From a virus: DNA of 64,000 nucleotides. The stretch is from positions 64,001 to 128,000 of IMG/VR virus record IMGVR_UViG_3300030616_000017; one strand, given 5' to 3'. The notes beneath the pieces are model-generated. The model was not told the DNA's origin and made no database searches. It worked only from the letters and a program-made list of their open reading frames with translations. The translations under genes were made by a program, and so were the position numbers. Of this stretch, positions 27,874 to 56,049 are shown in pieces. How positions within the stretch are numbered: the stretch's first letter is position 1; each line of letters starts with the position of its first letter.

Positions 27874-27978
27874 GGGGGAGAAAATGGATTCGACTGCTAC
27901 ACTGCTGAAGCGACGAAAGGCCCAAAGTAACGAAAGCTGAGGTGTAGCAGGACTCGGGTTCGATGCCCGACTCCTCCA
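27874..27978 (+). ncRNA. ssrA: miniature tmRNA (tRNA-like domain only)
   Basis: 5' GGGGGAG-AAAATGGATTCGAC; helix CTGCTACACT/GGTGTAGCAG; GAC-TCGGG TTCGATG CCCGA; acceptor with G3:U70 and A73. Confidence 0.85.
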
Positions 27979-27991
27979 AAATAAAAAATAT

Positions 27992-28081
27992 GGGCAAGTG
28001 GCGAAGCTGGTTGAAACGCATGAGACTTAAAATCTCATACCCAAGCGGTAAACATCGTGGGTTCGATCCCCACCTTGCCTA
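27992..28081 (+). tRNA. tRNA-Leu(TAA)
   Basis: Cloverleaf; TGAGA-CTTAAAA-TCTCA; long variable arm. Confidence 0.93.
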
Positions 28082-28085
28082 ATAT

Positions 28086-28159
28086 GGCACCTTAGCTCAG
28101 CTGGATAGAGCATGAGATTTCTAATCTCAGGGTCACAGGTTCGAATCCTGTAGGTGTCA
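28086..28159 (+). tRNA. tRNA-Arg(TCT)
   Basis: Cloverleaf; TGAGA-TTTCTAA-TCTCA. Confidence 0.95.
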
Positions 28160-28175
28160 TACTAATATAAAAAAT

Positions 28176-28248
28176 GGACCGTTAGCTCAGTCGGTAGAGC
28201 AACGCACTTTTAATGCGTAGGTCACAGGATCGTAGCCTGTACGGTTCA
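28176..28248 (+). tRNA. tRNA-Lys(TTT), atypical T-loop
   Basis: ACGCA-CTTTTAA-TGCGT; T-loop ATCGTAG. Confidence 0.9.
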
Positions 28249-28252
28249 CTAA

Positions 28253-28324
28253 GGTTTATTCGTATATTGGTTAGTACGCTGGATTGTCGATCCAGAAGGC
28301 GGGGTTCGATTCCCCGATAGACCG
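28253..28324 (+). tRNA. tRNA-Asp(GTC)
   Basis: CTGGA-TTGTCGA-TCCAG; G73. Confidence 0.92.
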
Positions 28325-28368
28325 TTTTTGTAAGAAATCTATATAGTTTTTTCTTACAAAATCTCTTT

Positions 28369-28442
28369 GCTCCCTTCGTCTAATCGGTTAGGATATCGCC
28401 CTTTCAAGGCGAAGATATCGGGTTCAAGTCCCGTAGGGAGTA
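28369..28442 (+). tRNA. tRNA-Glu(TTC)
   Basis: TCGCC-CTTTCAA-GGCGA. Confidence 0.93.
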
Positions 28443-28454
28443 AAACATTTTACT

Positions 28455-28486
28455 TTACTTTTTGGTAGAAAATGATTATATTATAT
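28455..28486 (+). promoter_or_regulatory. promoter for the ncRNA triplet/TerD/RNA ligase unit
   Basis: TTTACT..TTATATTATA consensus ending 2 nt before repeat 1. Confidence 0.65.
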
Positions 28487-28488
28487 AT

Positions 28489-28546
28489 GTAGGCAGAGGG
28501 AGTTCCTCTAAAAAACACGGTGAAAGTTTGAATACTCTCCGCCTAC
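28489..28546 (+). ncRNA. bulged-stem ncRNA, copy 1 (Y-RNA-like candidate)
   Basis: GTAGGC-AGA-GGGAGT-TCCT...ACTCTC-C-GCCTAC. Confidence 0.75.
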
Positions 28547-28561
28547 TTTATTGAAATTAAT

Positions 28562-28617
28562 ATGGCATAGAGGGTTCCTATACTATCAACTTTAAATTGA
28601 ATTCTACCCTCCGCCAT
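28562..28617 (+). ncRNA. bulged-stem ncRNA, copy 2
   Basis: ATGGC-ATA-GAGGGT-TCCT...ACCCTC-C-GCCAT. Confidence 0.75.
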
Positions 28618-28633
28618 TTTAATATGAGTAATT

Positions 28634-28723
28634 AAGGGCATAAGAAGTTCCTAATGTAAAGAATTTACAGGGCAACTCCTACGGGAGCAGGGCCCTGTGC
28701 CAACAAACTTACTTCTCGCCCTT
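28634..28723 (+). ncRNA. bulged-stem ncRNA, copy 3
   Basis: AAGGGC-ATA-AGAAGT-TCCT...ACTTCT-C-GCCCTT; internal C(UACG)G hairpin. Confidence 0.75.
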
Positions 28724-28750
28724 TTATTAACCTACCAAAAGGAGAATCAA

Positions 28751-30694
28751 ATGATTTCCACTCTACGTCTTTTTAATGGTATTATTATTCCCAACAAAGA
28801 AGTTCCTGAAGATACTAATTCAGTAATATGGCCTCATGAAAAGTCTTACGAACAGCTTACTAAAGAAACTCTCAAGAAAGGATACATTGTTGATAAGGCT
28901 ATCTATTTTAATCTTACTCCTGAAGGCTTAAAAGACTTTAACAAGGCTATGAAAGAAAAGCTTACTTTTCATCGAGATTGGAATAATAGCTTTTATAAGT
29001 CTTGGAATAAACTGGAAACTCTTTCAGATTTTGAATTGCGTTTAGACCAGCTTTTTCATTACTTTACTACGTATGGAGCCGAAGCTCTTGGAATAAAAGA
29101 TTCTTTTGTTTACCTCCCTAAAGGCAATACTTTTATGCCCCCTGTAAGTGAAGATTTTTCTTTTCTTTATATTCGTGGATTTGAAAGAGAAGAAATTCAG
29201 GAAAAGATTGTAGCTATGGTTGGTTCTGGAATTGCTCTAAAAGAAGAAACCATTGAAGATCTTCTTACTATTGTTATGGAATTTTCAAAGAAGCACATTT
29301 TCGACATCTTCTCTGTTTGCAAGAACAAGGAAGTGAAGGTTCGATTAGCAGAGTTATATGATTTTATTCCTAAAAATGTAGGAGAATTTCTTAGATACGT
29401 TATTTACAAGAATACAGGGAAGTCTCTTGTTATTAAGAATAAAGCTACAATTGACGCTATAAAGATAGGGAGAGATAGAAAAACTCCTTCTTATTTCTAT
29501 GCGTATAGAGATGCTTATGGGCTTGAAAGTCTTGCTAAAAACTTTTATCGGTATAAGCCTCTTCTTCTTGCTTTTCGGTCTGCATTCCCTGAACTAAAGC
29601 CACTGATTAATCAAGTAAGAAAACTTGCTGTAAAGTTCCATGAACCTATGAAAGAAGATTTTCTTAATACTGTTACCAAAAAAATCAAACAGAATGCTGT
29701 TCTTAATCTCACCACTTTAGAACAAGAACTCTTTAAGGCAAACACCTTTAGAAAAGTACGGTTGCTATATGCTCTTCAGAATCTGGAAAGCCAAACTGAA
29801 GATAAAATCTATAATATTCGGAACGGTAAACAGTATGTAACGAAAGCAAGTATGCCTCGATTTAAAAAAGAGGATGTTGCTTTTTTAGCTGATAAGGTCT
29901 ATTCTCATATTGTTGAAGATATTAAACCAAATGTAGAAGGTAAGACAGTTTTGGTTCATCCAAGACTTGCATATGCTCTTCCTTCTTCAGAAAAGAATTT
30001 TATAGGAAACTACCCTGTCAAGAGTAAGGTAGAATTCAACAGTACAAGAGACCTGATTATTGGTGTTCACTGGAAAAATCAAAAAAATAGAGTAGATCTA
30101 GATCTTTCTCTTCTTAGTCTTGATGGAACCAAGTTTGGATGGAATGGTCGTTATAGGGATGAAGGAATTCTTTTTTCAGGCGATGTGACTGATGCTCCTG
30201 GAGCAGGAGCTTCTGAGTTTTATTATTTCAAAGGTGTTAAAGACGGGATGTATTCAGTAGTTTTGAATTATTACAATTCTTATGGGGTAGAAGAAGAATG
30301 CCCTTTTGATATAATTATTGGGGCTTTTGATGGACAAGATATTAATAGGAATTTTATGTTACGCCCTGAAAATATTGTTTTTCAAGCCTCCTCATCTATC
30401 GGCCCTGAACAGATTAATCTGGGAATGGTGGTTATAGAGGGAGACAAAAAAGTATTTAGTATGATAGAGGGAAAGAGAGCTCGTGCTTCAGTGTCTGCTA
30501 ACGATGAACTCAATGCTGTATATTTGAATGCACTTAAATCTGAAACTGAAAATATTATATTTCTAACAGATGTGCTTACTGATGCTGGAGCTGTAGTAGT
30601 AGAAGATCGAGAAGATTCAGTTATTGATTTTGATCTTACTCCTACCTATATTCAGAAAGATACCATTATGTCAATGTTTACAAAGGAGAGGTAA
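28751..30694 (+). CDS. large helical protein with C-terminal TerD-like domain (possible TROVE/Ro-like)
   Basis: RBS AAGGAG and ATG at 28751; W..DLDLS..W..FSGD..GASEF TerD-like motif. The TROVE fold is inference. Confidence 0.6.
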   Translation: MISTLRLFNGIIIPNKEVPEDTNSVIWPHEKSYEQLTKETLKKGYIVDKAIYFNLTPEGLKDFNKAMKEKLTFHRDWNNSFYKSWNKLETLSDFELRLDQLFHYFTTYGAEALGIKDSFVYLPKGNTFMPPVSEDFSFLYIRGFEREEIQEKIVAMVGSGIALKEETIEDLLTIVMEFSKKHIFDIFSVCKNKEVKVRLAELYDFIPKNVGEFLRYVIYKNTGKSLVIKNKATIDAIKIGRDRKTPSYFYAYRDAYGLESLAKNFYRYKPLLLAFRSAFPELKPLINQVRKLAVKFHEPMKEDFLNTVTKKIKQNAVLNLTTLEQELFKANTFRKVRLLYALQNLESQTEDKIYNIRNGKQYVTKASMPRFKKEDVAFLADKVYSHIVEDIKPNVEGKTVLVHPRLAYALPSSEKNFIGNYPVKSKVEFNSTRDLIIGVHWKNQKNRVDLDLSLLSLDGTKFGWNGRYRDEGILFSGDVTDAPGAGASEFYYFKGVKDGMYSVVLNYYNSYGVEEECPFDIIIGAFDGQDINRNFMLRPENIVFQASSSIGPEQINLGMVVIEGDKKVFSMIEGKRARASVSANDELNAVYLNALKSETENIIFLTDVLTDAGAVVVEDREDSVIDFDLTPTYIQKDTIMSMFTKER

Positions 30695-30695
30695 A

Positions 30696-31808
30696 ATGAG
30701 AGACCTTGCTTATATTGCTAAAATTGAAAAGCTTGAACCCATTAAAGATAAGGATAGAATTGAACTCGCCACAGTAGCTAATTGGGAAGTAATTGTAGGA
30801 AAAGGAGAATATAAGGTTGGAGACCTTGTGGTGTATGTTGAGTATGATACTGTTCTTCCTGTCAAGCCCGAATTCGAGTTTCTAAGAAAAAGATGTTATT
30901 CAAAACTTTATGACGGGTTTAGAATTCGTAATATGTCAATGGCTGGTGTATTTTCTCAAGGAATTGTGTTTCCTCTCTCTATTCTCCCAAAGAGTGTTAA
31001 GATTGAGGAGGGAAGAAATGTTGCTAAAGAACTAGAAATTGTTCGATATGATCCAGAAGAGATACGAGAAAATAGAATGATTCATAATTCCAAGCCTAAA
31101 AATCCTCTTATGAGATTTAAGTGGTTTAGAAAACTTCGGAATAAATATTTTGGTAAAACTTCCTCTTATCCTTCTACAGTAAAGAAATCTGATGAAACAA
31201 ATATTCAGAAGCTTTTCAACGCGTACAAAGAAAATTATAATGATGTGAAGTTTTATGCTACGGAAAAAGTAGAAGGACAAGCAGCAACCTATGTGCTTAA
31301 ACGAGGTCGCTTTCACGTTTACTCCCACAATAAGAGTGTGCGGAACGATGGAAAAAACAATTGGTCAGCAACTGCTAAACTGTATGACATTGAAAAGAAG
31401 CTGCGTCAGTATAAAAGAAAACACGGAGTAGAGCTTGCAATCCAAGGAGAAATTGCGGGGCCGGGAATTCAAAAGAATATCTATGGGTTTGATACATTTA
31501 GATTTTTCGTATATAAAATCACTAATGTGAAAACAGGTGAAGCGTACAACTTCGTGGATTTAGTTAATCTTATTGTAAAGTTAGATCTATTTCTTTGTCC
31601 TCTTGTTTATACATCTATATATCTTAATGCGTTTGAAACCGTACAGGAAATTCTTGAGCATAGTAATGGAGATAGTGTATTAAGAAAGGATAAGAAGATT
31701 CCAAGAGAAGGGCTTGTATGGAGAGCTGTAGAAGATCAAAATATAGGGTTTAAAGCTAAGAGTCCGGTATACCTTGCAGCTTGGGATAAAAAAGATAAAA
31801 CTGAATAA
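30696..31808 (+). CDS. ATP-dependent RNA ligase, DRB0094 family
   Basis: N-terminal DRIELATV..W..GDLVVY..D; TEKVEG, QGEIAGPGIQKN, REGLV, FKAKS. Confidence 0.9.
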   Translation: MRDLAYIAKIEKLEPIKDKDRIELATVANWEVIVGKGEYKVGDLVVYVEYDTVLPVKPEFEFLRKRCYSKLYDGFRIRNMSMAGVFSQGIVFPLSILPKSVKIEEGRNVAKELEIVRYDPEEIRENRMIHNSKPKNPLMRFKWFRKLRNKYFGKTSSYPSTVKKSDETNIQKLFNAYKENYNDVKFYATEKVEGQAATYVLKRGRFHVYSHNKSVRNDGKNNWSATAKLYDIEKKLRQYKRKHGVELAIQGEIAGPGIQKNIYGFDTFRFFVYKITNVKTGEAYNFVDLVNLIVKLDLFLCPLVYTSIYLNAFETVQEILEHSNGDSVLRKDKKIPREGLVWRAVEDQNIGFKAKSPVYLAAWDKKDKTE

Positions 31809-31874
31809 AATTACTTGATTTTTTTCAAATTAGCTGTTATATTATAATCTGTAACCAAAATGAAGGAGTTTAAA

Positions 31875-32381
31875 ATGAAAAAACTACTGCTTGTAATTAT
31901 GTTGTTTCTTTTTACCACGTCTTTTACTTTTGCAGGTAAAGCTATCAATACTGAGTTAACTAAGTTTACTTATGAGACTTGTCAGGCACATAATGTCCCT
32001 TTTGATATTGTTATTGCAATAGGGATAGTAGAAAGCGATTGGAGAAATCTTAAATCATATAGATCCAATTCTAATGGTTCTTATGATGTGGGAATCTTTC
32101 AATTGAATAGCCGTTATACTGATTATTATGAAAGAACATTTTGGTATAAAGAGGAGGATTTTAATCCTTGGAATGAATATCATAATGTAGAAATGGCTGT
32201 TATGTATTTGGAACATCTTTACAGTTATACGAAAAATTGGGAGGATGCTGTTAAAGCGTATAATACTGGTCTTCATGGTTTGAAAAAGTATCCTGAAACC
32301 GCTATGGCGTATTTAGCTAAAGTAGCTAATGCATTAAATCGAATTCAGGTGTTTACAGAGGATTATATTTATTATGATTGA
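31875..32381 (+). CDS. lytic transglycosylase (SLT)
   Basis: Signal peptide; VES, DVGIFQLN, AYNTG. Confidence 0.88.
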   Translation: MKKLLLVIMLFLFTTSFTFAGKAINTELTKFTYETCQAHNVPFDIVIAIGIVESDWRNLKSYRSNSNGSYDVGIFQLNSRYTDYYERTFWYKEEDFNPWNEYHNVEMAVMYLEHLYSYTKNWEDAVKAYNTGLHGLKKYPETAMAYLAKVANALNRIQVFTEDYIYYD

Positions 32382-32435
32382 ATCCATTATTAAAAAGAAA
32401 TAGATTGAAGTAACTGTTAAAGAAGGAGAAGAATA

Positions 32436-32633
32436 ATGAAAAGAGTTTGGTATAAACCTGAAGATAAACTTCCAGAGGATGGGGTTACAGTTATAGCAGA
32501 ATTATGCTGTGGGTTTGAACCAGATGAGCTTTTTGAACTTTATTATGACTCCAAAAAAGATGCTTGGTTTGATCCGGAAGACGGTCAAGAAGTTGTGAAT
32601 AAAGTACTAAAATGGAGCCACACTTCTTACTAA
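32436..32633 (+). CDS. small DUF551-like protein
   Basis: W..PEDKLPE...V..W pattern; RBS. Confidence 0.5.
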   Translation: MKRVWYKPEDKLPEDGVTVIAELCCGFEPDELFELYYDSKKDAWFDPEDGQEVVNKVLKWSHTSY

Positions 32634-32656
32634 TATAAATACACGAGAGGTTATTT

Positions 32657-32827
32657 ATGGGAAAAAGTATTAGCAAAAACGCTCGCCGTAGTGGAGAAGA
32701 TATATTAATTTCACGCTGGGGAGGAGAGATAAAGATGAAAACCATCTTTGAAAACGGCAAGATGAGACATGTTGCTGTATGTCAAAAAACAGGTAATGCA
32801 GCAAGAAAGCCAAAGGATTTGATGTAA
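32657..32827 (+). CDS. 56-aa basic protein (absent from the ORF track)
   Basis: GAGG RBS and ACTAATA motif upstream; MGKSISKNARRSGED...ARKPKDLM. Confidence 0.7.
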   Translation: MGKSISKNARRSGEDILISRWGGEIKMKTIFENGKMRHVAVCQKTGNAARKPKDLM

Positions 32828-32835
32828 TAGGTTTT

Positions 32836-32908
32836 TGAGGTATAGCTCAGTTGGCAGAGCGCTTGACTGTTAATCAAGATGTCGCAGGTTCAAGTCCTGC
32901 TACCTCAG
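32836..32908 (+). tRNA. tRNA-Asn(GTT)
   Basis: CTTGA-CTGTTAA-TCAAG. Confidence 0.95.
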
Positions 32909-32926
32909 ATATTTTAACAGAAAATT

Positions 32927-33017
32927 GGAAGGGTGACCGAGTCTGGCTTATGGTGATGCCCTGCTAAGGCATTGGGGGAAATAATTTCTTCTGAAGGTTC
33001 AAATCCTTCTCCTTCCG
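32927..33017 (+). tRNA. tRNA-Ser(GCT)
   Basis: ATGCC-CTGCTAA-GGCAT; long variable arm; G73. Confidence 0.92.
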
Positions 33018-33024
33018 TTTTTAC

Positions 33025-33096
33025 GCCTCTCTAGCTCAACGGTAGAGCAACGCTCTTGTAAAGCGTAGGTTATCTGTTCGAATCAGATGAGGGGCT
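33025..33096 (+). tRNA. tRNA-Thr(TGT)
   Basis: ACGCT-CTTGTAA-AGCGT. Confidence 0.93.
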
Positions 33097-33098
33097 AT

Positions 33099-33172
33099 GT
33101 GGCTGTAGCTCAGTAGGCTAGAGCGTCTGTCTGTGGAACAGAAGGCCGAGGGTTCAATTCTCTCCAGCCACC
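33099..33172 (+). tRNA. tRNA-His(GTG)
   Basis: TCTGT-CTGTGGA-ACAGA; C73; T rather than G at position -1. Confidence 0.92.
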
Positions 33173-33177
33173 TTTAT

Positions 33178-33250
33178 AGGTCTGTAATTCAATTGGCAGA
33201 ATACTGGTCTCCAAATCCAAAAGTTGAGGGTTCGATTCCTTCCGGGCCTG
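33178..33250 (+). tRNA. tRNA-Trp(CCA)
   Basis: CTCCAAA loop; imperfect anticodon stem. Confidence 0.88.
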
Positions 33251-33258
33251 TATATTAT

Positions 33259-33339
33259 AGAGTCTAGCGCTAAGGTAGCAAACTGGACTTGAAATCCAGG
33301 CCATGTGTATGCATGAGGGTTCGATTCCTTTAGGCTCTG
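33259..33339 (+). tRNA. tRNA-Ser(TGA), atypical D-arm
   Basis: CTGGA-CTTGAAA-TCCAG; variable arm CATG/CATG; G73. Confidence 0.8.
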
Positions 33340-33410
33340 TATAGTAAAAGGAGTAAAAGAATGAAAAGGAGAGCTGTTTTCTAACTACTTAAATAAAGGA
33401 GTTAGAAGCA

Positions 33411-33731
33411 ATGAGTAAAACGTATCGTAAGGTTATTAGTTTTAACGACGGCCAAACATCAGGAACTAAATGGGCTCAAAGACAAGCTAATAAGAAAGTT
33501 AGAAGAACTAAAGACGTTCCAAATGGTAGAGCTTATAAAAAGCTTTATGATAGTTGGAATATTAGAGACTTCAAAAGCAATTTCTACACAGAAAGAGAAG
33601 CAAGAGAGTATATAGAAGATTCTTGGTTTAGTACTTGGAAGGGGGATTTCCACAAAGTATGGAAGTATAAAGGCTTTCAAAAGAAAAAGCTTTTTTCCAG
33701 AACTTCTATACGTAAGCTTGAAAACGAATGA
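33411..33731 (+). CDS. hypothetical basic protein
   Basis: RBS AAGGAG lies within a hairpin. Confidence 0.65.
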   Translation: MSKTYRKVISFNDGQTSGTKWAQRQANKKVRRTKDVPNGRAYKKLYDSWNIRDFKSNFYTEREAREYIEDSWFSTWKGDFHKVWKYKGFQKKKLFSRTSIRKLENE

Positions 33732-33752
33732 GTTTTTGATTATATTATAATT

Positions 33753-33897
33753 GTAAGTTCAGTCAACCAACAGGGGGTCATGTCCTTGTAGAAGGTGTTA
33801 CTGAAATATACGTGACGACGAAAGTAGATGCTGCAGAATCAAAATCTTTGGCGGTATTTTGGTAGAGGAGGACTTTTAATCCTCCTCCTGAACTTAC
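33753..33897 (+). ncRNA. unknown structured ncRNA
   Basis: 10-bp closing stem GTAAGTTCAG/CTGAACTTAC, several internal helices, promoter at 33718-33749. Confidence 0.7.
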
Positions 33898-33907
33898 TTT
33901 TTATTAT

Positions 33908-33981
33908 GGGGTTGCATGTACCAAGGCTGGCGATTTTCCTTTGCAAGGAAGATGAGCTCGGTTCAATTCCGAGGGGCTCCA
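33908..33981 (+). tRNA. tRNA-Ala(TGC), atypical D-arm
   Basis: TTTCC-TTTGCAA-GGAAG; G3:U70; A73. Confidence 0.75.
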
Positions 33982-33987
33982 CTTTTT

Positions 33988-34062
33988 CCCTCCATACCCA
34001 AGTTGGTTTAAGGGAACGGATTGCAAACCCGTTATTCGCAAGTTCGAATCTTGCTGGGGGGT
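33988..34062 (+). tRNA. tRNA-Cys(GCA)
   Basis: ACGGA-TTGCAAA-CCCGT; U73. Confidence 0.9.
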
Positions 34063-34081
34063 TTAGAAAAAGGAGAAATAA

Positions 34082-34795
34082 ATGAGTGTATTTGTATGTG
34101 GTGATACGCATCATGATTATGACATAGAGAAATTAAGTATAGAAAGATGGCCCGAACAAGAACAACTTACACTTGATGACTTTCTTATTCAGCTTGGCGA
34201 TTTTGGTGTGCCTTGGAGCAATGATAGAGAAAACCCCTCTGATTTGAGAATGTTTCAATGGTGGGCAAGTAGACCTTGGACTACTTTAGTTATCCCAGGA
34301 AACCATGAGAATTATGATCGTCTTGCTTTATATCCGGAAATAGAGATGTTTGGAGGCCCAGTGCAAAGAATGGCCAATAATGTTTATATTCTTCAAAGAG
34401 GGTATGTATATGAAGTAGATGGTAAAAAAATATTTGCAATGAGCGGAGGGTTTTCAATCGATAAGGATTGGAGAACAGAGTTTGTTAGTTGGTGGAGTCA
34501 AGAAATGCCAACATATCAGGAAATTCTTGATGCAAGAAAAAGATTAGAAGAAGCAGGTTGTGATGTTGATTATGTTCTTACTCACACCTGCTCTAATATT
34601 ACATTTGAAAAACTTTTTCTTCAGATTGATCTTATGCCTGAAAAAAATAAAAGAAATCCTCTAAGGCATTTTCTCGATTGGGTAGAAGAAAATGTAAAGT
34701 TTAAGGAATGGCATTTTGGTCATTTCCATGACGATGTACAGGTAGATGAAAAGCATTTTCTTCATTACAATAAACCGCCTGTACGGTTAATATAA
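34082..34795 (+). CDS. calcineurin-like metallophosphoesterase
   Basis: GDTH, GDFG, GNHE, THT, GHFH. Confidence 0.9.
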   Translation: MSVFVCGDTHHDYDIEKLSIERWPEQEQLTLDDFLIQLGDFGVPWSNDRENPSDLRMFQWWASRPWTTLVIPGNHENYDRLALYPEIEMFGGPVQRMANNVYILQRGYVYEVDGKKIFAMSGGFSIDKDWRTEFVSWWSQEMPTYQEILDARKRLEEAGCDVDYVLTHTCSNITFEKLFLQIDLMPEKNKRNPLRHFLDWVEENVKFKEWHFGHFHDDVQVDEKHFLHYNKPPVRLI

Positions 34796-34804
34796 AAAGT
34801 ATAT

Positions 34805-34878
34805 GCCCCGGTAGACCAATTGGAAGAGTTAGCAGATTTAGAATCTGTACAGTGTGAGTTCAAATCTCACTCGGGGCA
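34805..34878 (+). tRNA. tRNA-Leu(TAG), short variable arm
   Basis: GCAGA-TTTAGAA-TCTGT; A73. Confidence 0.88.
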
Positions 34879-34910
34879 ATATCTGAAAAATAAAGGAGAA
34901 AAAAAAATAA

Positions 34911-35510
34911 ATGATTGATCCTCCAAAAAAGGAATATCGAGGAAAACTACCCGATGGACAAGTTAAGACTTATTTAGCGTGCTTGCGGCACATAGAAAGT
35001 GGAGTATGGTTTTCGAAAATAGGGACGACAAGCGACCAAGATGCAGAAGATCGTTTAACGTATTGGGGTCTATACCCTGATAGAAAAGGGTACTTAGAAT
35101 TTACAGATATAAAAATTATCTGGTCTATAAAATTCACAAAAAGATATTGGGCAGAAGCTCTGGAGCAACTCTATTTAGGCCTCTCCCCAAAAATTAATAT
35201 TGCAGCCATAGCTAACGAAGTCGGTAAGTGTAATATAGAACATGATAGATATGGACCTGGATATCTTAATGGATATAGCGAGTTTAGGTATCTTAGTGAA
35301 GAAGAGCTAAAGGATGCACGAGATACAGGGTATGCGATAAAACAACGTATGTTTGGAATAAAGGAAGTAGGAGATCAAGAGAGGGAGAAAGTAGTCAGTG
35401 GTGAGGAAGCGCAAAGAATAATGAAAGTATTACAAGACTATGATGTTCATTCGATTGAAGCTTTACACAGCCGTATTAATACGCATTATCCTCGCCGTTG
35501 GTATCACTAA
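34911..35510 (+). CDS. GIY-YIG/T5orf172-like protein (possible homing endonuclease)
   Basis: TYL...FSKIGTT..R..E pattern; free-standing in the tRNA cluster. Confidence 0.45.
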   Translation: MIDPPKKEYRGKLPDGQVKTYLACLRHIESGVWFSKIGTTSDQDAEDRLTYWGLYPDRKGYLEFTDIKIIWSIKFTKRYWAEALEQLYLGLSPKINIAAIANEVGKCNIEHDRYGPGYLNGYSEFRYLSEEELKDARDTGYAIKQRMFGIKEVGDQEREKVVSGEEAQRIMKVLQDYDVHSIEALHSRINTHYPRRWYH

Positions 35511-35517
35511 TATAAAT

Positions 35518-35602
35518 AGCGGGGTAGAGTAGAGGTCAAACTCGGTGGTCTCATAAGCCACTGCACGAAAGTGCTCGTTGGGTTCAATTCCCACCCCCGT
35601 TA
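35518..35602 (+). tRNA. tRNA-Met(CAT), initiator-like, long variable arm
   Basis: AGCGGGG acceptor; A11:U24; GTGGT-CTCATAA-GCCAC; GCAC-GAAA-GTGC arm. Confidence 0.8.
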
Positions 35603-35619
35603 TACCTTTTTATATCAAT

Positions 35620-35694
35620 GCGCCTGTGGTGTTTAACGGATTAGCATGACAGCCTTCCAAGCTGACGGTACGGGTTCGAATCCCGTCAGGCGCT
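35620..35694 (+). tRNA. tRNA-Gly(TCC)
   Basis: CAGC-CTTCCAA-GCTG; U73. Confidence 0.93.
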
Positions 35695-35703
35695 CTTATA
35701 ATA

Positions 35704-35794
35704 AGGAGATGATCTTCACGGGGGACTGTAAATCCCTTCTGCGTTAACAATTGTGAAGTGGCTGCAGGGTTGGGTTCGATTCCCTCATCTCCCA
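35704..35794 (+). tRNA. tRNA-Tyr(GTA) lacking a D-arm
   Basis: GGAGAT/ATCTCC acceptor; GGGGA-CTGTAAA-TCCCT; GGG-TTCGATT-CCC; only ~9 nt in the D region. Confidence 0.72.
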
Positions 35795-35905
35795 TTTTTT
35801 TTGAAAAAGTTTAATTTTTACTTGAATTTTAGAAAAAACTTCGTTATATTATAAATATGAATAAGATAATAAGAGGGAGTAAGGAATCGGTTAACTTAAA
35901 CATTT

Positions 35906-35976
35906 AGGGGTATCGTCTAACGGTAAGACGCAGGGTTTTGGTCCCTGAGATAGGAGTTCGATTCTTCTTACCCCTA
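35906..35976 (+). tRNA. tRNA-Gln(TTG)
   Basis: CAGGG-TTTTGGT-CCCTG. Confidence 0.92.
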
Positions 35977-35982
35977 TACTAT

Positions 35983-36056
35983 CTAGATGTGGTGTTTAAC
36001 GGTAGCACGCCTGGTTTGGGACCAGGATGGTGGAGGTTCAAATCCTTCCATCTAGA
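35983..36056 (+). tRNA. tRNA-Pro(TGG)
   Basis: CCTGG-TTTGGGA-CCAGG; C1-G72. Confidence 0.92.
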
Positions 36057-36084
36057 CTTTTTAAAAAACTTAAAGGAGCTTAAA

Positions 36085-49154: not shown

Positions 49155-50159
49155 ATGAAAATGCTTGAGAAAACAATGAAACAGATTCTTACTAAGAAAA
49201 TTAAAGCTTGGAAAGCAACGATTGAGGACACAGAAATTCAAAGGATCATAGATAAAGATCTTATTGTAACTGGTGGTTGTTTTACTTCTATGATTCTTAA
49301 TGAAGCCCCAAAGGATTATGATTGTTATTTTCGTACTAAAGAAAGTGTTCTTAAAGTGGCTAATTACTATGTAGATAAATGGAATGAAGAACATGGGAAA
49401 AAGAAAAACGGAGCGGGATATCATTCTAAAGTATTTGTGGTAGATGGAGACAATCCTTCTCAAGAGGTTCTTGAATATTTTCATGTTGAAGATCCTAATG
49501 AATCACGAGCAGTAATGATGAGTAATATCCAGAAAGGAAGAGTCAAGATCATTTATCCATCAGATGGAGTAGTGGGCGATCCTGAGGAAATTCATGCAAG
49601 TGAAGAGCTTGGAACCGCAGTAGAAAATATTGGAGAAATTGATGAAGTAAAAGCAGATGAAATTCTGGAAAAAGAAAAGAAAGAATATTTTCCTGTTTTT
49701 ATCTCTTCTAATGCAATAACCCTTTCTAATGGAGTTCAGATTGTAGTACGCTTCTATGGTGAGCCAAGTGATATTCATGATACATATGATTTTGAACATA
49801 CTAAAGCATACTACGATAACAAGGCTAAAGAAGTTGTAATTCCTAAAGAAGTTTATGAGATGGTTATTAATAAGACCCTCCGTTATTCAGGAAGCAGATA
49901 TCCTGTATGTAGTCTTTTTAGATTAAGAAAGTTTATCAATCGAGGGTGGAAGATAAACGCTGGTCAAATCCTCAAAATAGCTATGCAAGTGTCTGAACTT
50001 AATCTTATGGATATCAATGTTTTGGAAGATCAGCTTATCGGAGTAGATAGCCTTTACTTTATGAATCTTATTCATCAGTTCCGCAAACAGAAAGAAAAGA
50101 GTCCTGATTTTGAACTAACACCGAACTACATTATTTCTATTATTGATAAAATATTTTAA
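49155..50159 (+). CDS. nucleotidyltransferase-like protein
   Basis: TGG..SM....PKDYDCYF pol-beta-type motif; RLRKF..RGW. Confidence 0.6.
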   Translation: MKMLEKTMKQILTKKIKAWKATIEDTEIQRIIDKDLIVTGGCFTSMILNEAPKDYDCYFRTKESVLKVANYYVDKWNEEHGKKKNGAGYHSKVFVVDGDNPSQEVLEYFHVEDPNESRAVMMSNIQKGRVKIIYPSDGVVGDPEEIHASEELGTAVENIGEIDEVKADEILEKEKKEYFPVFISSNAITLSNGVQIVVRFYGEPSDIHDTYDFEHTKAYYDNKAKEVVIPKEVYEMVINKTLRYSGSRYPVCSLFRLRKFINRGWKINAGQILKIAMQVSELNLMDINVLEDQLIGVDSLYFMNLIHQFRKQKEKSPDFELTPNYIISIIDKIF

Positions 50160-52308: not shown

Positions 52309-52668
52309 ATGATTACCAGGACAAAGAGTAAACGGACTATTTACATTTCAGGGCCAATGGAAGGAAAACCCAATAACAACTTTGCAGCATTTGAAGAAGC
52401 AGAGGAAATGCTAAAAGGGATGGGGTATGAGGTTATCAACCCCGCTAAACTTGCTGTCGATTCTAATTTTATAATTACCAATACTCCCAATAGACAGGAT
52501 TATTATCGAAAGGATGTTAGAGCTCTTTCATATTGTACTGATATTTTTATGCTAAAGGATTGGAACCTCTCTCATGGAGCAAAGTTTGAAAGGTATGTTG
52601 CTCTTGAAATTGGGGTAAAAATTCATTATTTTGGTGAGGTAGAAAGCGGGGTTTTGCGAGAAAGATAA
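52309..52668 (+). CDS. DUF4406 / nucleoside deoxyribosyltransferase-like protein
   Basis: IYISGPM, N..AF, NPA, W..S.GA..E. Confidence 0.85.
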   Translation: MITRTKSKRTIYISGPMEGKPNNNFAAFEEAEEMLKGMGYEVINPAKLAVDSNFIITNTPNRQDYYRKDVRALSYCTDIFMLKDWNLSHGAKFERYVALEIGVKIHYFGEVESGVLRER

Positions 52669-52685
52669 TACTAATATAATATGAA

Positions 52686-52955
52686 GCATACCTTCTATTG
52701 CTTGCCGATCCTAATTAGCTTAAAGGTAAAAGTGTCCTCACATCATCAAACAGAAAGTAGGGTTTTGAGAGCTCTCCCCACCGAGCTGTTTGTAGAGGAA
52801 GAGACGTGGGTTCAATTCCCGCGATTAGCCGTAGAATAGTAAAAGAAGAGTATGTAACCCTTTCTGAAAAGGAGGTTGCTTTTTGAAGTTTTTCTAATAA
52901 CATTCACTACTTGCGTTGCAAGAAAGCAAACCAAAAATGAAAGGAGTAAAAACAT
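52686..52955 (+). ncRNA. structured ncRNA containing a tRNA-like domain (52711-52828)
   Basis: D-arm, TCCTC/GAGGA stem and T-arm GTGGG-TTCAATT-CCCGC enclosed by a long stem; ACTAATA motif upstream, terminator downstream. Confidence 0.65.
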
Positions 52956-52956
52956 C

Positions 52957-52980
52957 AACCCCTCTTTTTGAGGGGTTTTT
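52957..52980 (+). terminator. intrinsic terminator
   Basis: AACCCCTC/GAGGGGTT plus T run. Confidence 0.85.
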
Positions 52981-53036
52981 ATTTACAAATACAAAGAAAG
53001 TTGTTATATTATAAATAGAGACATAAACATAGGAAG

Positions 53037-54347
53037 GTGAAGTATATGAGTTTGAGAGAAGGCATCCGCCAAAAAGTTCTTATTCGAGCGCTAGATCAAA
53101 CACCTTGGGCTGTTAGTCTAGGGTTCGACTTTACAGCTGAGCACGAATGGGGCGTAAAAGCTATCGCGGAGAAACTTGGAATAGAAGAGAAGCCTAAAAA
53201 TTGGAAGAATCTCTTAGTGCGCAAAACCTCAGAATTGCACATTGGGGAGACGAAGACTAAAGAGGAAGACACTCTTTACTACCTCTCCACTACAGAAGAC
53301 CCTCTTGTAGTAAAAGAAAAACTTAATTATCTCAAGCCTAAAGAGGATATGTTCACTTTTTGGAATTGGGATGATTTTGTAATCTTCTTCCGGAGAGAGT
53401 ACGATAGAGACTCTCTATATGCAAAATTCAAGGAAAAGAAGATGATGGTAGGCACAGTACTTCCTGTCCGCACATACTTGCAAGAAGTCTACGGAAAGGA
53501 AGCTGGAGGTTTGATTTTTATAGATCAGACACATCTGCCTACTTCTGTTAAAGTAGAGATAGGGGAGTACTATCGTCAGCGTCACAATCTGGATATTGTG
53601 GCTAAGAATACACAAGTGGAGCAAGCACTTGAAAAAGTTAGTCAGCAATGGAAGAAAACTTTTCCAAATAGCTTCAGTTCCCCATGGGCTACCTTTAGCA
53701 TTCACCCCACATGGATCGAGCAGACATCTTTGGATGAGACCTCTTCCGAACACGCTGTTGCTTTCTTTATTAACCCAATGTACCAAGATGCAGTAGCATC
53801 AGGATGGTTTACTGTTGAGCAGATATTTGATTGGGTCAATGAAGAGGTAAAAGAAGGGGGAATGATTAAAGATAAAGCTGAGTGGGAAAAAGTCGTTTTT
53901 TCTTGTAAGAACCATTCTCTTTACTCTGTTTTTCATCATTATAAGAATTTTAATCATTACGAAAGCAAGCATTGGAGTACCGGCAAGAGACATCCTCACG
54001 AACAGGTAAGAATTCTTAAAAAAGATTTTGATGATGAGGAAACCTTTTCGACTATTGAAGCACACATTAAGTGGATTATGCGCGATGCTCTAAATGCTCA
54101 AAATTATATTACCCCTTCTACTATAGCTGATTACAATTTTGTTCTTCCTGTCTCTATTCAAGAGAGAACGTTTGGCATTTTTGAAGCACTATCAGCTATG
54201 GGTTTTTGCTATTTCGGAGCTGTGAATCATCCAGAGGAAAAAGAGAATGCTTCCTACTTGCTCGAGAAACTGCATGCAGAGGTAATACTAGAAATTGTAA
54301 GAGAATATTACCCTAATGAAATTCAAAGTACTTGGTTTGACAACTAA
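53037..54347 (+). CDS. hypothetical protein
   Basis: 436-aa ORF with a consensus promoter upstream. Confidence 0.7.
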   Translation: MKYMSLREGIRQKVLIRALDQTPWAVSLGFDFTAEHEWGVKAIAEKLGIEEKPKNWKNLLVRKTSELHIGETKTKEEDTLYYLSTTEDPLVVKEKLNYLKPKEDMFTFWNWDDFVIFFRREYDRDSLYAKFKEKKMMVGTVLPVRTYLQEVYGKEAGGLIFIDQTHLPTSVKVEIGEYYRQRHNLDIVAKNTQVEQALEKVSQQWKKTFPNSFSSPWATFSIHPTWIEQTSLDETSSEHAVAFFINPMYQDAVASGWFTVEQIFDWVNEEVKEGGMIKDKAEWEKVVFSCKNHSLYSVFHHYKNFNHYESKHWSTGKRHPHEQVRILKKDFDDEETFSTIEAHIKWIMRDALNAQNYITPSTIADYNFVLPVSIQERTFGIFEALSAMGFCYFGAVNHPEEKENASYLLEKLHAEVILEIVREYYPNEIQSTWFDN

Positions 54348-55212: not shown

Positions 55213-56049
55213 ATGATAGACCCTAAAAGCTATCAACTATTAAGAAGCGAAGAAGAACTGGAATGGTTCTATGAAAATGTAATGCCTCCTTTGAATAATC
55301 ATGAGGTGTATTTTCTCTCTCTTAGTGCAAGAAAAAAACTTCTCACCGATTTTGAAAAGCAAACAATTCAGCTTGGTAGAACAGAAATGTTTGAAAGAAG
55401 AATTGTAAGAACAAAAGAATGGAATCGGCTGTATAGAACCGTTCGAAAGTTTGAAGCGAATTGGGGAGCATATACAAGTAAAAGAGGTTCTAATATTCCT
55501 AATCATGCAATAGTGGTGTATGTTAATATTAATCCTTCTGATGTTCTTAAAGCATATAAAGAGTTTAACCAAACTATGAATGAATATATGTATGAGCTGG
55601 TTCAATGTGCTGCAGAAAAGAGAAGTACAGACAATATTCTTTATCGTATCAAAAAACAAGATACACTTCTTATGAATTGCTATCAGAAGAATAGGGGAAC
55701 AAAACATTGGATGGATTTTGATTTCGATATTCCTAGAAGCCCAAAAATTCTTTCTATTTTATACTTGTTCGTTGAAGAGATTAAAGAACATAAAGGAAAA
55801 GCATATATTGTAGAGACACAAGGAGGATACCATATCTTAGTAAGTATGGATACTGAATTTAATCAGCAGTTTAACCCTCCTGTTTTAACTAAAAAATATG
55901 GAGAGGCCATTGCAAGATACATATCTCAAGGAGCTTGTGCAAAGATAGAAAACTTAGGGTATGAAGTAATTCATAATAAGAATGCTATGATCCCTCTTCC
56001 AGGAACTGTGCATAATGGTACGTTAGTAAAAATTCTAAATAAGGAGTAA
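55213..56049 (+). CDS. AEP-like protein
   Basis: MDFDFD, ETQGGYH, PLPGT. Confidence 0.5.
   Translation: MIDPKSYQLLRSEEELEWFYENVMPPLNNHEVYFLSLSARKKLLTDFEKQTIQLGRTEMFERRIVRTKEWNRLYRTVRKFEANWGAYTSKRGSNIPNHAIVVYVNINPSDVLKAYKEFNQTMNEYMYELVQCAAEKRSTDNILYRIKKQDTLLMNCYQKNRGTKHWMDFDFDIPRSPKILSILYLFVEEIKEHKGKAYIVETQGGYHILVSMDTEFNQQFNPPVLTKKYGEAIARYISQGACAKIENLGYEVIHNKNAMIPLPGTVHNGTLVKILNKE

What the first reader, a model, noticed from the sequence alone, without database searches (positions are those of the whole stretch)
52670..52980. Stand-alone ~300-nt RNA with a caged tRNA-like fold and expanded anticodon arm
Seen: between an ACTAATA motif and a terminator there is no credible plus-strand ORF. A short acceptor-like stem (CTAAT/ATTAG), a D-arm (GCTT-AAAGGTAA-AAGT), an anticodon-like stem (TCCTC/GAGGA) and a T-arm are present. 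The anticodon loop is replaced by 55 nt (CAAACAG/CTGTTTG stem plus a possible pseudoknot using AGCTC/GAGCT and GTAGGG/CCCCAC). The whole fold is closed by a ~17-bp stem (52686-52702 with 52838-52855) and followed by two more hairpins. Inference: a non-chargeable tRNA-elbow mimic or scaffold RNA of unknown class.
Basis: partly seen in the sequence, partly recalled or inferred. Interest (0 to 1): 0.78.

Follow-up and report, generated by a model that had tools for sequence, protein, structure and literature searches.

The report
Phage tRNA-shaped RNA with dimer loop
A sediment phage and two relatives carry a conserved 300-base RNA gene that copies the corner of a tRNA but cannot carry an amino acid or read codons; where the anticodon should be it has a self-complementary loop that probably joins two copies together, and its tail holds a tiny four-codon reading frame.

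Summary
Real. The element is a stand-alone RNA gene of a 147-kb myovirus, between a late-promoter motif and a terminator. I found two diverged homologues at the same gene junction in related phages (58-66% identical). All three keep the tRNA elbow nucleotides, a long arm replacing the anticodon loop and an outer closing stem, several helices with compensatory changes.

(1) The arm's apex is a palindrome in all three, with centres AGCU, GGCC and GAUC, the same covariation that marks the intermolecular kissing loop of OLE RNA. This points to homodimerisation; the third homologue was a blind test. (2) The 3' third holds a strong Shine-Dalgarno plus a four-codon frame (MKFF, MKIL, MKFI), a weaker lead.

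No Rfam match; not a Y RNA (no Ro60 gene), tmRNA or T4/T5 stable-RNA member. Limits: three sequences, no expression data, function inferred.

The parts
52670..52680 (+). Late-promoter motif (ACTAATATAAT); start of transcription inferred just downstream, about 52680-52683
   Evidence: 16 copies vs 0.27 expected; upstream of tail sheath, tail tubes, endolysin, terL; kept in both homologues
52686..52855 (+). 5' domain, closed by outer stem P1 (52686-52702 with 52838-52855)
   Evidence: pair probability 0.94-0.99; core 9/11, 9/9, 10/11 pairs in three homologues with changed pairs
52716..52733 (+). tRNA U8-A9 and D arm (4-bp stem, loop with A14, G18, G19)
   Evidence: 11-nt block invariant in all three; stem 4/4 in all but never varying
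52735..52799 (+). Long arm replacing the anticodon arm: basal stem, internal loop, insert stem 52747-53/52786-92, apical loop
   Evidence: basal stem 5/5, 4/5, 7/7; insert stem 7/7, 6/6, 8/8, each with a different sequence
52767..52776 (+). Perfect 10-nt palindrome at the apex (centre AGCU); proposed intermolecular kissing/dimer signal
   Evidence: 10-nt palindrome with centre GGCC in L122; 6-nt palindrome (8 with G-U) with centre GAUC in L219; dimer gain beats 291, 298, 298 of 300 apex shuffles
52802..52826 (+). T arm whose stem is extended to 9-10 bp by the 'variable loop' strand, in place of an acceptor stem
   Evidence: 8/9, 9/9, 10/10 pairs with compensatory changes
52831..52839 (+). Conserved linker motif GTA-N2-3-TAG, partner unknown
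   Evidence: present in all three
52859..52946 (+). 3' domain: closing helix Pa (52859-64/52939-44), helix Pb (52874-77/52929-32), triloop hairpin Pd (52910-22), invariant GAAAGGAG (52939-46)
   Evidence: Pa, Pb and Pd can form in all three; compensatory U-A to C-G in Pd; helix Pc absent in L219
52869..52897 (+). Strong Shine-Dalgarno (52869-75) and 4-codon minigene TTG...TAA (52883-97; MKFF)
   Evidence: MKIL and MKFI in the homologues, spacing 7/10/7 nt, anti-SD duplex -11.6 to -13 kcal/mol; chance retention 5-23% per homologue
52957..52981 (+). Intrinsic terminator
   Evidence: 8/8, 9/9, 9/9 pairs
52982..53010 (+). Sigma70-type promoter of the next operon (not part of the RNA; marks it as a separate unit)
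   Evidence: 10/12 match with TG; TTGACA at the same place in both homologues

Best explanation
A late-expressed, roughly 300-nt phage non-coding RNA derived from a tRNA. It keeps the D-loop/T-loop elbow as a docking surface. It cannot be aminoacylated (no acceptor stem, no CCA, ends locked in a stem) and cannot decode. The anticodon arm has become a dimerisation arm: a palindromic apical loop pairs with the same loop of a second molecule, as in OLE L9.3. Most likely the dimer works in trans as a stable, two-headed decoy or scaffold for host tRNA-elbow-binding and translation components late in infection, with the 3' SD-minigene module loading ribosomes. Shown by computation: conservation, synteny, secondary structure, loss of the acceptor stem, palindrome covariation. 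Inferred: transcription and late timing (about 0.9), elbow tertiary fold (0.75), dimer (0.65), translation of the minigene (0.45), decoy/scaffold role (0.4).
For: Homologues at the same junction: L122 (nhmmer E 9e-12) and L219 (DUF4406 - RNA - 75-aa gene). Invariant blocks and compensated helices. U8, A9, A14, G18, G19, G53, U54, C56, A58, C61 kept. Palindrome centres AGCU/GGCC/GAUC: the innermost pairs cannot form within one chain. PMC12286853 reports the same three centres for the cryo-EM-resolved intermolecular loop of OLE. Shuffle tests: 0.029 and 0.006 for a 10-mer in the first two apices (post hoc); blind third copy 0.18 (6-mer), 0.06 (8-mer with G-U), 2/300 (dimer gain). Such palindromes are not enriched in 96 generic expanded-arm tRNA mimics (7 vs 6.5 expected). 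The phage encodes PTH2, an Rnl1 ligase and PNKP, compatible with minigene translation and tRNA conflict.
Against: Only three distinct sequences, so covariation is anecdotal and the alignment was anchored by hand. RNA identity clearly exceeds four-fold-site identity for window/L122 (55-62% vs 26-46%) but only slightly for window/L219 (58% vs 53%). The common model costs 5-9 kcal/mol over each MFE. ViennaRNA buries the L122 palindrome in the monomer. L122 has C at T-loop position 55, and the window has A15/C48 rather than a Levitt pair. TTG starts are rare in this phage (2 of 92). The RNA was not detected in relatives at 59-62% terminase identity, nor within 8.5 kb upstream of terL in one at 71%. 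No expression data and no partner identified.
Confidence: 0.5

Rival explanations
1. A Y-RNA-like tether: the stem formed by the 5' and 3' strands binds the host's Ro60/Rsr and the tRNA-like domain projects from it, as in D. radiodurans Yrn1, redirecting host RNA decay.
For: Same order as Yrn1 (D-like, anticodon-like and T arms on a closing stem; PMC4201824). The window has GCCGAT at 52704-09, 5 of 6 positions of the GNCGAA motif.
Against: No TROVE gene in the complete genome. No RF01053 match and no RF02553 match at this locus. The motif is ACTGAA and ATTGAA in the homologues. Does not explain the palindrome or the 3' domain.
Confidence: 0.12
2. A toxic-minigene RNA (lambda bar or CreT type): the working part is the SD plus 4-codon frame, which drains tRNA-Lys/Phe/Ile or ribosomes as peptidyl-tRNA; the tRNA-like domain only stabilises the transcript.
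For: SD, TTG and in-frame TAA kept in all three; the codon-2 change is synonymous and the others are hydrophobic swaps; the phage has PTH2.
Against: Chance retention 5-23% per homologue; all changes avoiding second positions has p about 0.12 (hand calculation); weak TTG start; the SD is partly paired in Pb; codons 3-4 vary, so no single tRNA is targeted.
Confidence: 0.15
3. Two separate RNAs in one precursor: the outer stem is an RNase III-type processing stem that releases a stable tRNA-like species (T4 RNA C / T5 RNA1 kind) and a 3' piece.
For: The two domains fold independently; flanking stems are a common processing signal (established knowledge).
Against: P1 is short and interrupted (9-11 conserved pairs); no acceptor stem or CCA for RNase P maturation, unlike T5 RNA1/2.
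Confidence: 0.13
4. A cis-acting attenuator or leader for the downstream operon, in which the SD strand pairs with the terminator's 5' strand.
For: SD and terminator strands can pair (-10.8 and -7.6 kcal/mol); short leader ORF before a terminator.
Against: The downstream operon has its own sigma70 promoter in all three and the first downstream gene varies; a similar terminator occurs elsewhere in the genome; terminator probability 0.91-0.95.
Confidence: 0.05
5. A decaying tRNA pseudogene, or DNA-level signals, with no RNA function.
For: Modest excess over neutral identity for one pair; patchy distribution; acceptor stem lost.
Against: Own promoter and terminator 16 kb from the tRNA cluster; invariant blocks; whole helices replaced with pairing kept; G-U-tolerant palindrome extension fits RNA rather than DNA.
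Confidence: 0.05

Closest known systems
T4 species 1/2 RNAs (rnaC, rnaD) and T5 RNA1/RNA2 ('tRNA-like stable RNA with unknown functions', AY543070)
   Same: Phage-encoded, non-decoding RNAs with a T arm and an enlarged middle; rnaC/D are late and of unknown function (PMC9697503, PMC3014915).
   Different: They are 119-144 nt, lie in tRNA clusters, and T4 RNA C and T5 RNA1/2 end in an acceptor-type stem right after the T arm. This RNA is a separate 300-nt unit, lacks the acceptor, continues into a second domain, and model R1 does not match them.
OLE RNA kissing loop L9.3 (bridge B3); ROOL and GOLLD RNA-only multimers (PMC12286853)
   Same: Symmetric loop whose centre switches among GGCC, GAUC and AGCU; ROOL and GOLLD are also phage RNAs of unknown function.
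   Different: No sequence or model match; far smaller; built on a tRNA frame; only one candidate intermolecular contact, not five or more; the dimer is predicted, not measured.
Bacterial Y RNAs: D. radiodurans Yrn1 (RF01053) and YrlA (RF02553)
   Same: tRNA-like module on a stem made by the RNA's 5' and 3' strands; not charged.
   Different: No Ro60 gene; binding motif not conserved; YrlA is permuted; extra 3' domain and palindromic arm.
tmRNA (RF00023)
   Same: tRNA-like domain plus short reading frame in one RNA, long helix in place of the anticodon arm.
   Different: No Ala acceptor end, a D stem is present, and the frame lies 3' of the T arm with its own SD and start codon.
Toxic minigenes (lambda bar) and CreT RNA toxin (from my own knowledge)
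   Same: Strong SD, very short frame, adjacent hairpin.
   Different: TTG start, variable codons, fused to a tRNA-like domain; translation untested.

Membership tests
tRNA (incl. intron-containing) | 7-bp acceptor stem ending at NCCA or a processable discriminator | tested here: not met
   3/7, 2/7, 4/7 pairs in the canonical register; no CCA within 30 nt of the T arm
tRNA (incl. intron-containing) | 7-nt anticodon loop, directly or after removal of an intron | tested here: not met
   insert of 33-55 nt with no conserved junctions; not called by ARAGORN or RF00005 at normal thresholds; a lowered-threshold call used a different 5' half
tRNA (incl. intron-containing) | D-loop GG and T-loop elbow nucleotides | tested here: met
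   exceptions are C55 in L122 and A15/C48 in the window
T4/T5 tRNA-like stable RNAs | Acceptor-type stem closing the RNA just after the T arm | tested here: not met
T4/T5 tRNA-like stable RNAs | Located in, and processed from, a tRNA cluster | tested here: not met
   nearest tRNA ends at 36057; own promoter and terminator
T4/T5 tRNA-like stable RNAs | Sequence/structure homology | tested here: not met
   model R1 gives no match on the annotated RNAs
T4/T5 tRNA-like stable RNAs | Stable RNA made late in infection | not testable with these tools
Bacterial Y RNA | Ro60/TROVE gene within about 4 kb | tested here: not met
   none in the genome
Bacterial Y RNA | Conserved GNCGAA motif near the 5' end | tested here: not met
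   5/6 in the window only
Bacterial Y RNA | Match to RF01053 or RF02553 | tested here: not met
   (weak hits fall on true tRNAs only)
Bacterial Y RNA | Binds Ro60 | not testable with these tools
   host unknown
tmRNA | Ala acceptor stem with G3-U70 and CCA; RF00023 match | tested here: not met
   only an 18-nt T-arm piece at 11 bits
OLE/ROOL/GOLLD multimeric RNAs | Rfam model match | tested here: not met
OLE/ROOL/GOLLD multimeric RNAs | Symmetric loop with covariation of adjacent central bases | tested here: met
   AGCU/GGCC/GAUC in three sequences; small sample
OLE/ROOL/GOLLD multimeric RNAs | Measured homo-oligomer | not testable with these tools
   only ViennaRNA cofold predictions
Toxic minigene / CreT | Conserved SD, start codon, 2-8 codons, stop | tested here: inconclusive
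   present in 3 of 3, but chance retention is 5-23% per homologue
Toxic minigene / CreT | Translation and tRNA sequestration | not testable with these tools
   needs toeprinting or expression

The most novel reading that the evidence does not exclude
A phage RNA in which the anticodon arm of a tRNA has been turned into a homodimerisation arm, giving a two-headed particle with two tRNA elbows and two ribosome-binding minigenes that captures or pairs host ribosomes late in infection: an RNA-only ribosome tether with no described counterpart.
Probability: 0.15. Interest if true: 0.88.

Novelty: new variant of a known kind. Interest (0 to 1): 0.62.

Why it matters
Phage tRNA-like stable RNAs have had no function for decades, and natural RNA multimers with evolutionary support are rare. 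This RNA is small, has its own promoter and terminator, and makes two sharp, cheap predictions: it dimerises through a swappable palindrome, and it loads ribosomes on a four-codon frame. If the first holds, it is a compact natural RNA dimer on a tRNA frame and shows one use for the replaced anticodon arm. If both hold, it links tRNA mimicry to ribosome capture.

Tried and rejected
Rfam at gathering and E-value thresholds for the window and L122: nothing relevant. BLAST against 50,697 phage records: only terminator-like fragments. Eight DNA-pattern scans of viral, metagenome and genome collections gave no homologue; homologues came only through neighbouring proteins. Three more distant phage genomes and loci L141-L146, L153, L220 lack a detectable copy. 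The 433-aa gene downstream is not linked to the RNA: its only homologue lies in another operon. The 75-aa downstream protein has three clusters and no known fold or family, so I do not claim it as a partner. The 52- and 62-codon overlapping ORFs are not conserved. The 3' motif as a sigma70 promoter: no conserved -10 (by eye). DNA-level palindrome: the words are not enriched in the genome. No complex prediction was run, as no protein partner is claimed.

Full report
Setting. The window is part of a complete 147,158-bp phage genome with tail sheath and tube genes, 18 tRNA genes at 27991-36057 and a 108-nt tmRNA-like RNA. The element fills the gap between a DUF4406 gene ending at 52668 and a 433-aa orphan gene starting near 53046, 16 kb from the tRNA cluster.

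Observation. The outer stem, insert stem, T arm and terminator have pair probabilities of 0.9 or more; the D stem (0.33), the anticodon-like stem (0.24) and the acceptor-like stem (0.5) are weaker. ACTAATA alone is at chance frequency, but ACTAATATAAT occurs 16 times against 0.27 expected and lies before tail sheath, tail tube, endolysin and terminase genes, so it is very likely the late promoter. A sigma70-type promoter follows the terminator. Rfam has no match.

Homologues. DNA searches failed, but neighbouring proteins led to two. L122 (terminase 73% identical) has a 364-nt gap at the same junction that matches over its full length (E 9e-12). L219 has the order DUF4406, 366-nt gap, 75-aa gene, 272-aa gene. 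Each has the promoter motif, the RNA, the terminator and a TTGACA promoter behind it. Pairwise identity is 58-66% on a hand-anchored alignment; four-fold degenerate sites in neighbouring genes give 26-46% for window/L122, 53% for window/L219 and 49% for L122/L219. The identity excess is therefore clear for one pair and modest for the others; the better evidence for selection is the invariant blocks and the replaced helices. Covariance models find no fourth member in 0.68 Mb of related phage DNA, including two complete genomes at 59-62% terminase identity. The family is narrow.

Anatomy, 5' domain. The outer stem has 9/11, 9/9 and 10/11 pairs. U8-A9 and the D arm form an 11-nt invariant block. 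The arm replacing the anticodon arm has a basal stem (5/5, 4/5, 7/7) and an insert stem (7/7, 6/6, 8/8) with different sequences in each copy. The T stem changes sequence with compensation and extends to 8/9, 9/9 and 10/10 pairs using the strand that is the variable loop in tRNA. So the conserved fold is an elbow without an acceptor end. The window copy may alternate between the two pairings. The proposed pseudoknot segments exist only in the window. The common model costs 5-9 kcal/mol over each MFE, so tertiary contacts or a partner must favour it (inference).

The palindrome. With two sequences I noticed that both apices hold a perfect 10-nt palindrome of different sequence (shuffle frequencies 0.029 and 0.006, post hoc), and noted it as a lead before fetching L219. 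L219's 13-nt loop holds TGATCA, extended to eight by G-U pairs (0.18 and 0.06 in shuffles). The centres are AGCU, GGCC and GAUC. The innermost bases cannot pair within one chain, so keeping self-complementarity through double changes points to pairing between two molecules. Kretsch et al. used this argument for OLE L9.3, where the centre switches among the same three words and cryo-EM shows an intermolecular kissing loop (PMC12286853). Predicted dimer gain for the arm is -16.5, -18.1 and -13.6 kcal/mol, matched by 9, 2 and 2 of 300 apex shuffles. The centre is predicted unpaired in the window and L219 but buried in L122. Among 96 generic expanded-arm tRNA mimics from IMG/VR, 10-nt palindromes are at chance level (7 vs 6.5), so this is specific to this family. 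I put dimerisation at about 0.65.

Anatomy, 3' domain. Helices Pa and Pb and the triloop hairpin Pd can form in all three, Pd with a U-A to C-G change; Pc does not hold in L219. Inside lies a strong SD (anti-SD duplex -11.6 to -13 kcal/mol) followed after 7, 10 and 7 nt by TTG, three sense codons and TAA: MKFF, MKIL, MKFI. This too was noted before L219 was read. But simple divergence would keep such a frame 5-23% of the time per homologue, and TTG starts are rare in this phage. It is a lead (about 0.45). The phage encodes PTH2 but no Pth, and an RNA ligase and PNKP lie 5-10 kb upstream; this is compatible context, not evidence.

Mechanism. Best reading: a late, stable, uncharged and non-decoding RNA that presents a tRNA elbow, dimerises through its former anticodon arm, and acts in trans as a decoy or scaffold for host tRNA-binding or translation components, with the 3' module able to load ribosomes. 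Conservation and secondary structure are shown computationally; transcription, dimer, translation and role are inferred. Rivals: Y-RNA-like tether (no TROVE gene; no model match; motif not conserved), toxic minigene, processed precursor, attenuator, pseudogene.

Comparison. It works like the tRNA-like stable RNAs of T4 and T5, which are of unknown function, but fails their features: those lie in tRNA clusters, most end in an acceptor-type stem after the T arm, and they do not match model R1. The topology resembles D. radiodurans Yrn1 (PMC4201824) without meeting Y RNA criteria. The scan's own notes list 61 findings with the words of expanded-arm phage tRNA mimics; no note matched this sequence in another genome or held all of the palindrome, dimer and minigene words. 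These notes are leads, not support.

Verdict. A real, conserved, apparently undescribed RNA family of a small phage clade: a new variant of the phage tRNA-mimic kind, with a testable dimer signature. Interest 0.62, limited by three sequences and no expression data.

Noticed in passing
window 27874-27981 (+): 108-nt tmRNA-like RNA with the tRNA-like domain only (RF00023, 59.9 bits); already followed up in this scan (e1-5836536).
   Followed up: no
window 35705-35793 (+): Unannotated tRNA-like element missed by ARAGORN and Rfam: 8-bp acceptor-type stem ending in CCCA, short T stem, GTA-centred loop and long extra arm; resembles the 8/4 allo-tRNA layout (PMC5389517 abstract). MFE z only -0.7.
   Followed up: partly
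window 35517-35603 (+): tRNA-Met(CAT) with a class-II-like long variable arm (4-bp stem, GAAA loop), unusual for a Met tRNA.
   Followed up: partly
window 28500-28720 (+): Three stem elements after a promoter, upstream of a long ORF; noted earlier as e1-5836515.
   Followed up: no
window 55213-56049 (+): 278-aa protein with over 320 homologues and no Pfam family; invariant DxDxD and TxGGxH motifs look, by eye, like an archaeo-eukaryotic primase fold.
   Followed up: no
window 53046-54347 (+): 433-aa orphan with a single 32% homologue, which sits in a different operon (L004); apparently inserted behind the RNA gene in this phage.
   Followed up: partly
window 49155-50159 (+): Gene whose product hits Gad2 (PF26128, anti-Gabija) in the precomputed annotation of the identical contig L001.
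   Followed up: no
G000 C1 54225-54623 (-), outside the window: Phage-encoded PTH2 peptidyl-tRNA hydrolase.
   Followed up: partly
L009 5354-5512 (-): Another caged tRNA-like RNA: outer stem, 7-bp acceptor, D arm, expanded arm, T arm, then a terminator-like tail; weak match to model R1 (E 0.02), probably a different family.
   Followed up: partly
L176 7000-12300 (-) (G002): Several T-arm-bearing elements with a shared upstream motif in a related phage that otherwise has almost no tRNA genes.
   Followed up: no
L168 5457-5529 (+) (G001): tRNA with CUA (amber) anticodon in a related 146-kb phage.
   Followed up: no
L167 15330-15490 and 15858-15948 (+) (G001): Two tRNA-like genes with enlarged anticodon arms inside the tRNA cluster of a related phage.
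   Followed up: no
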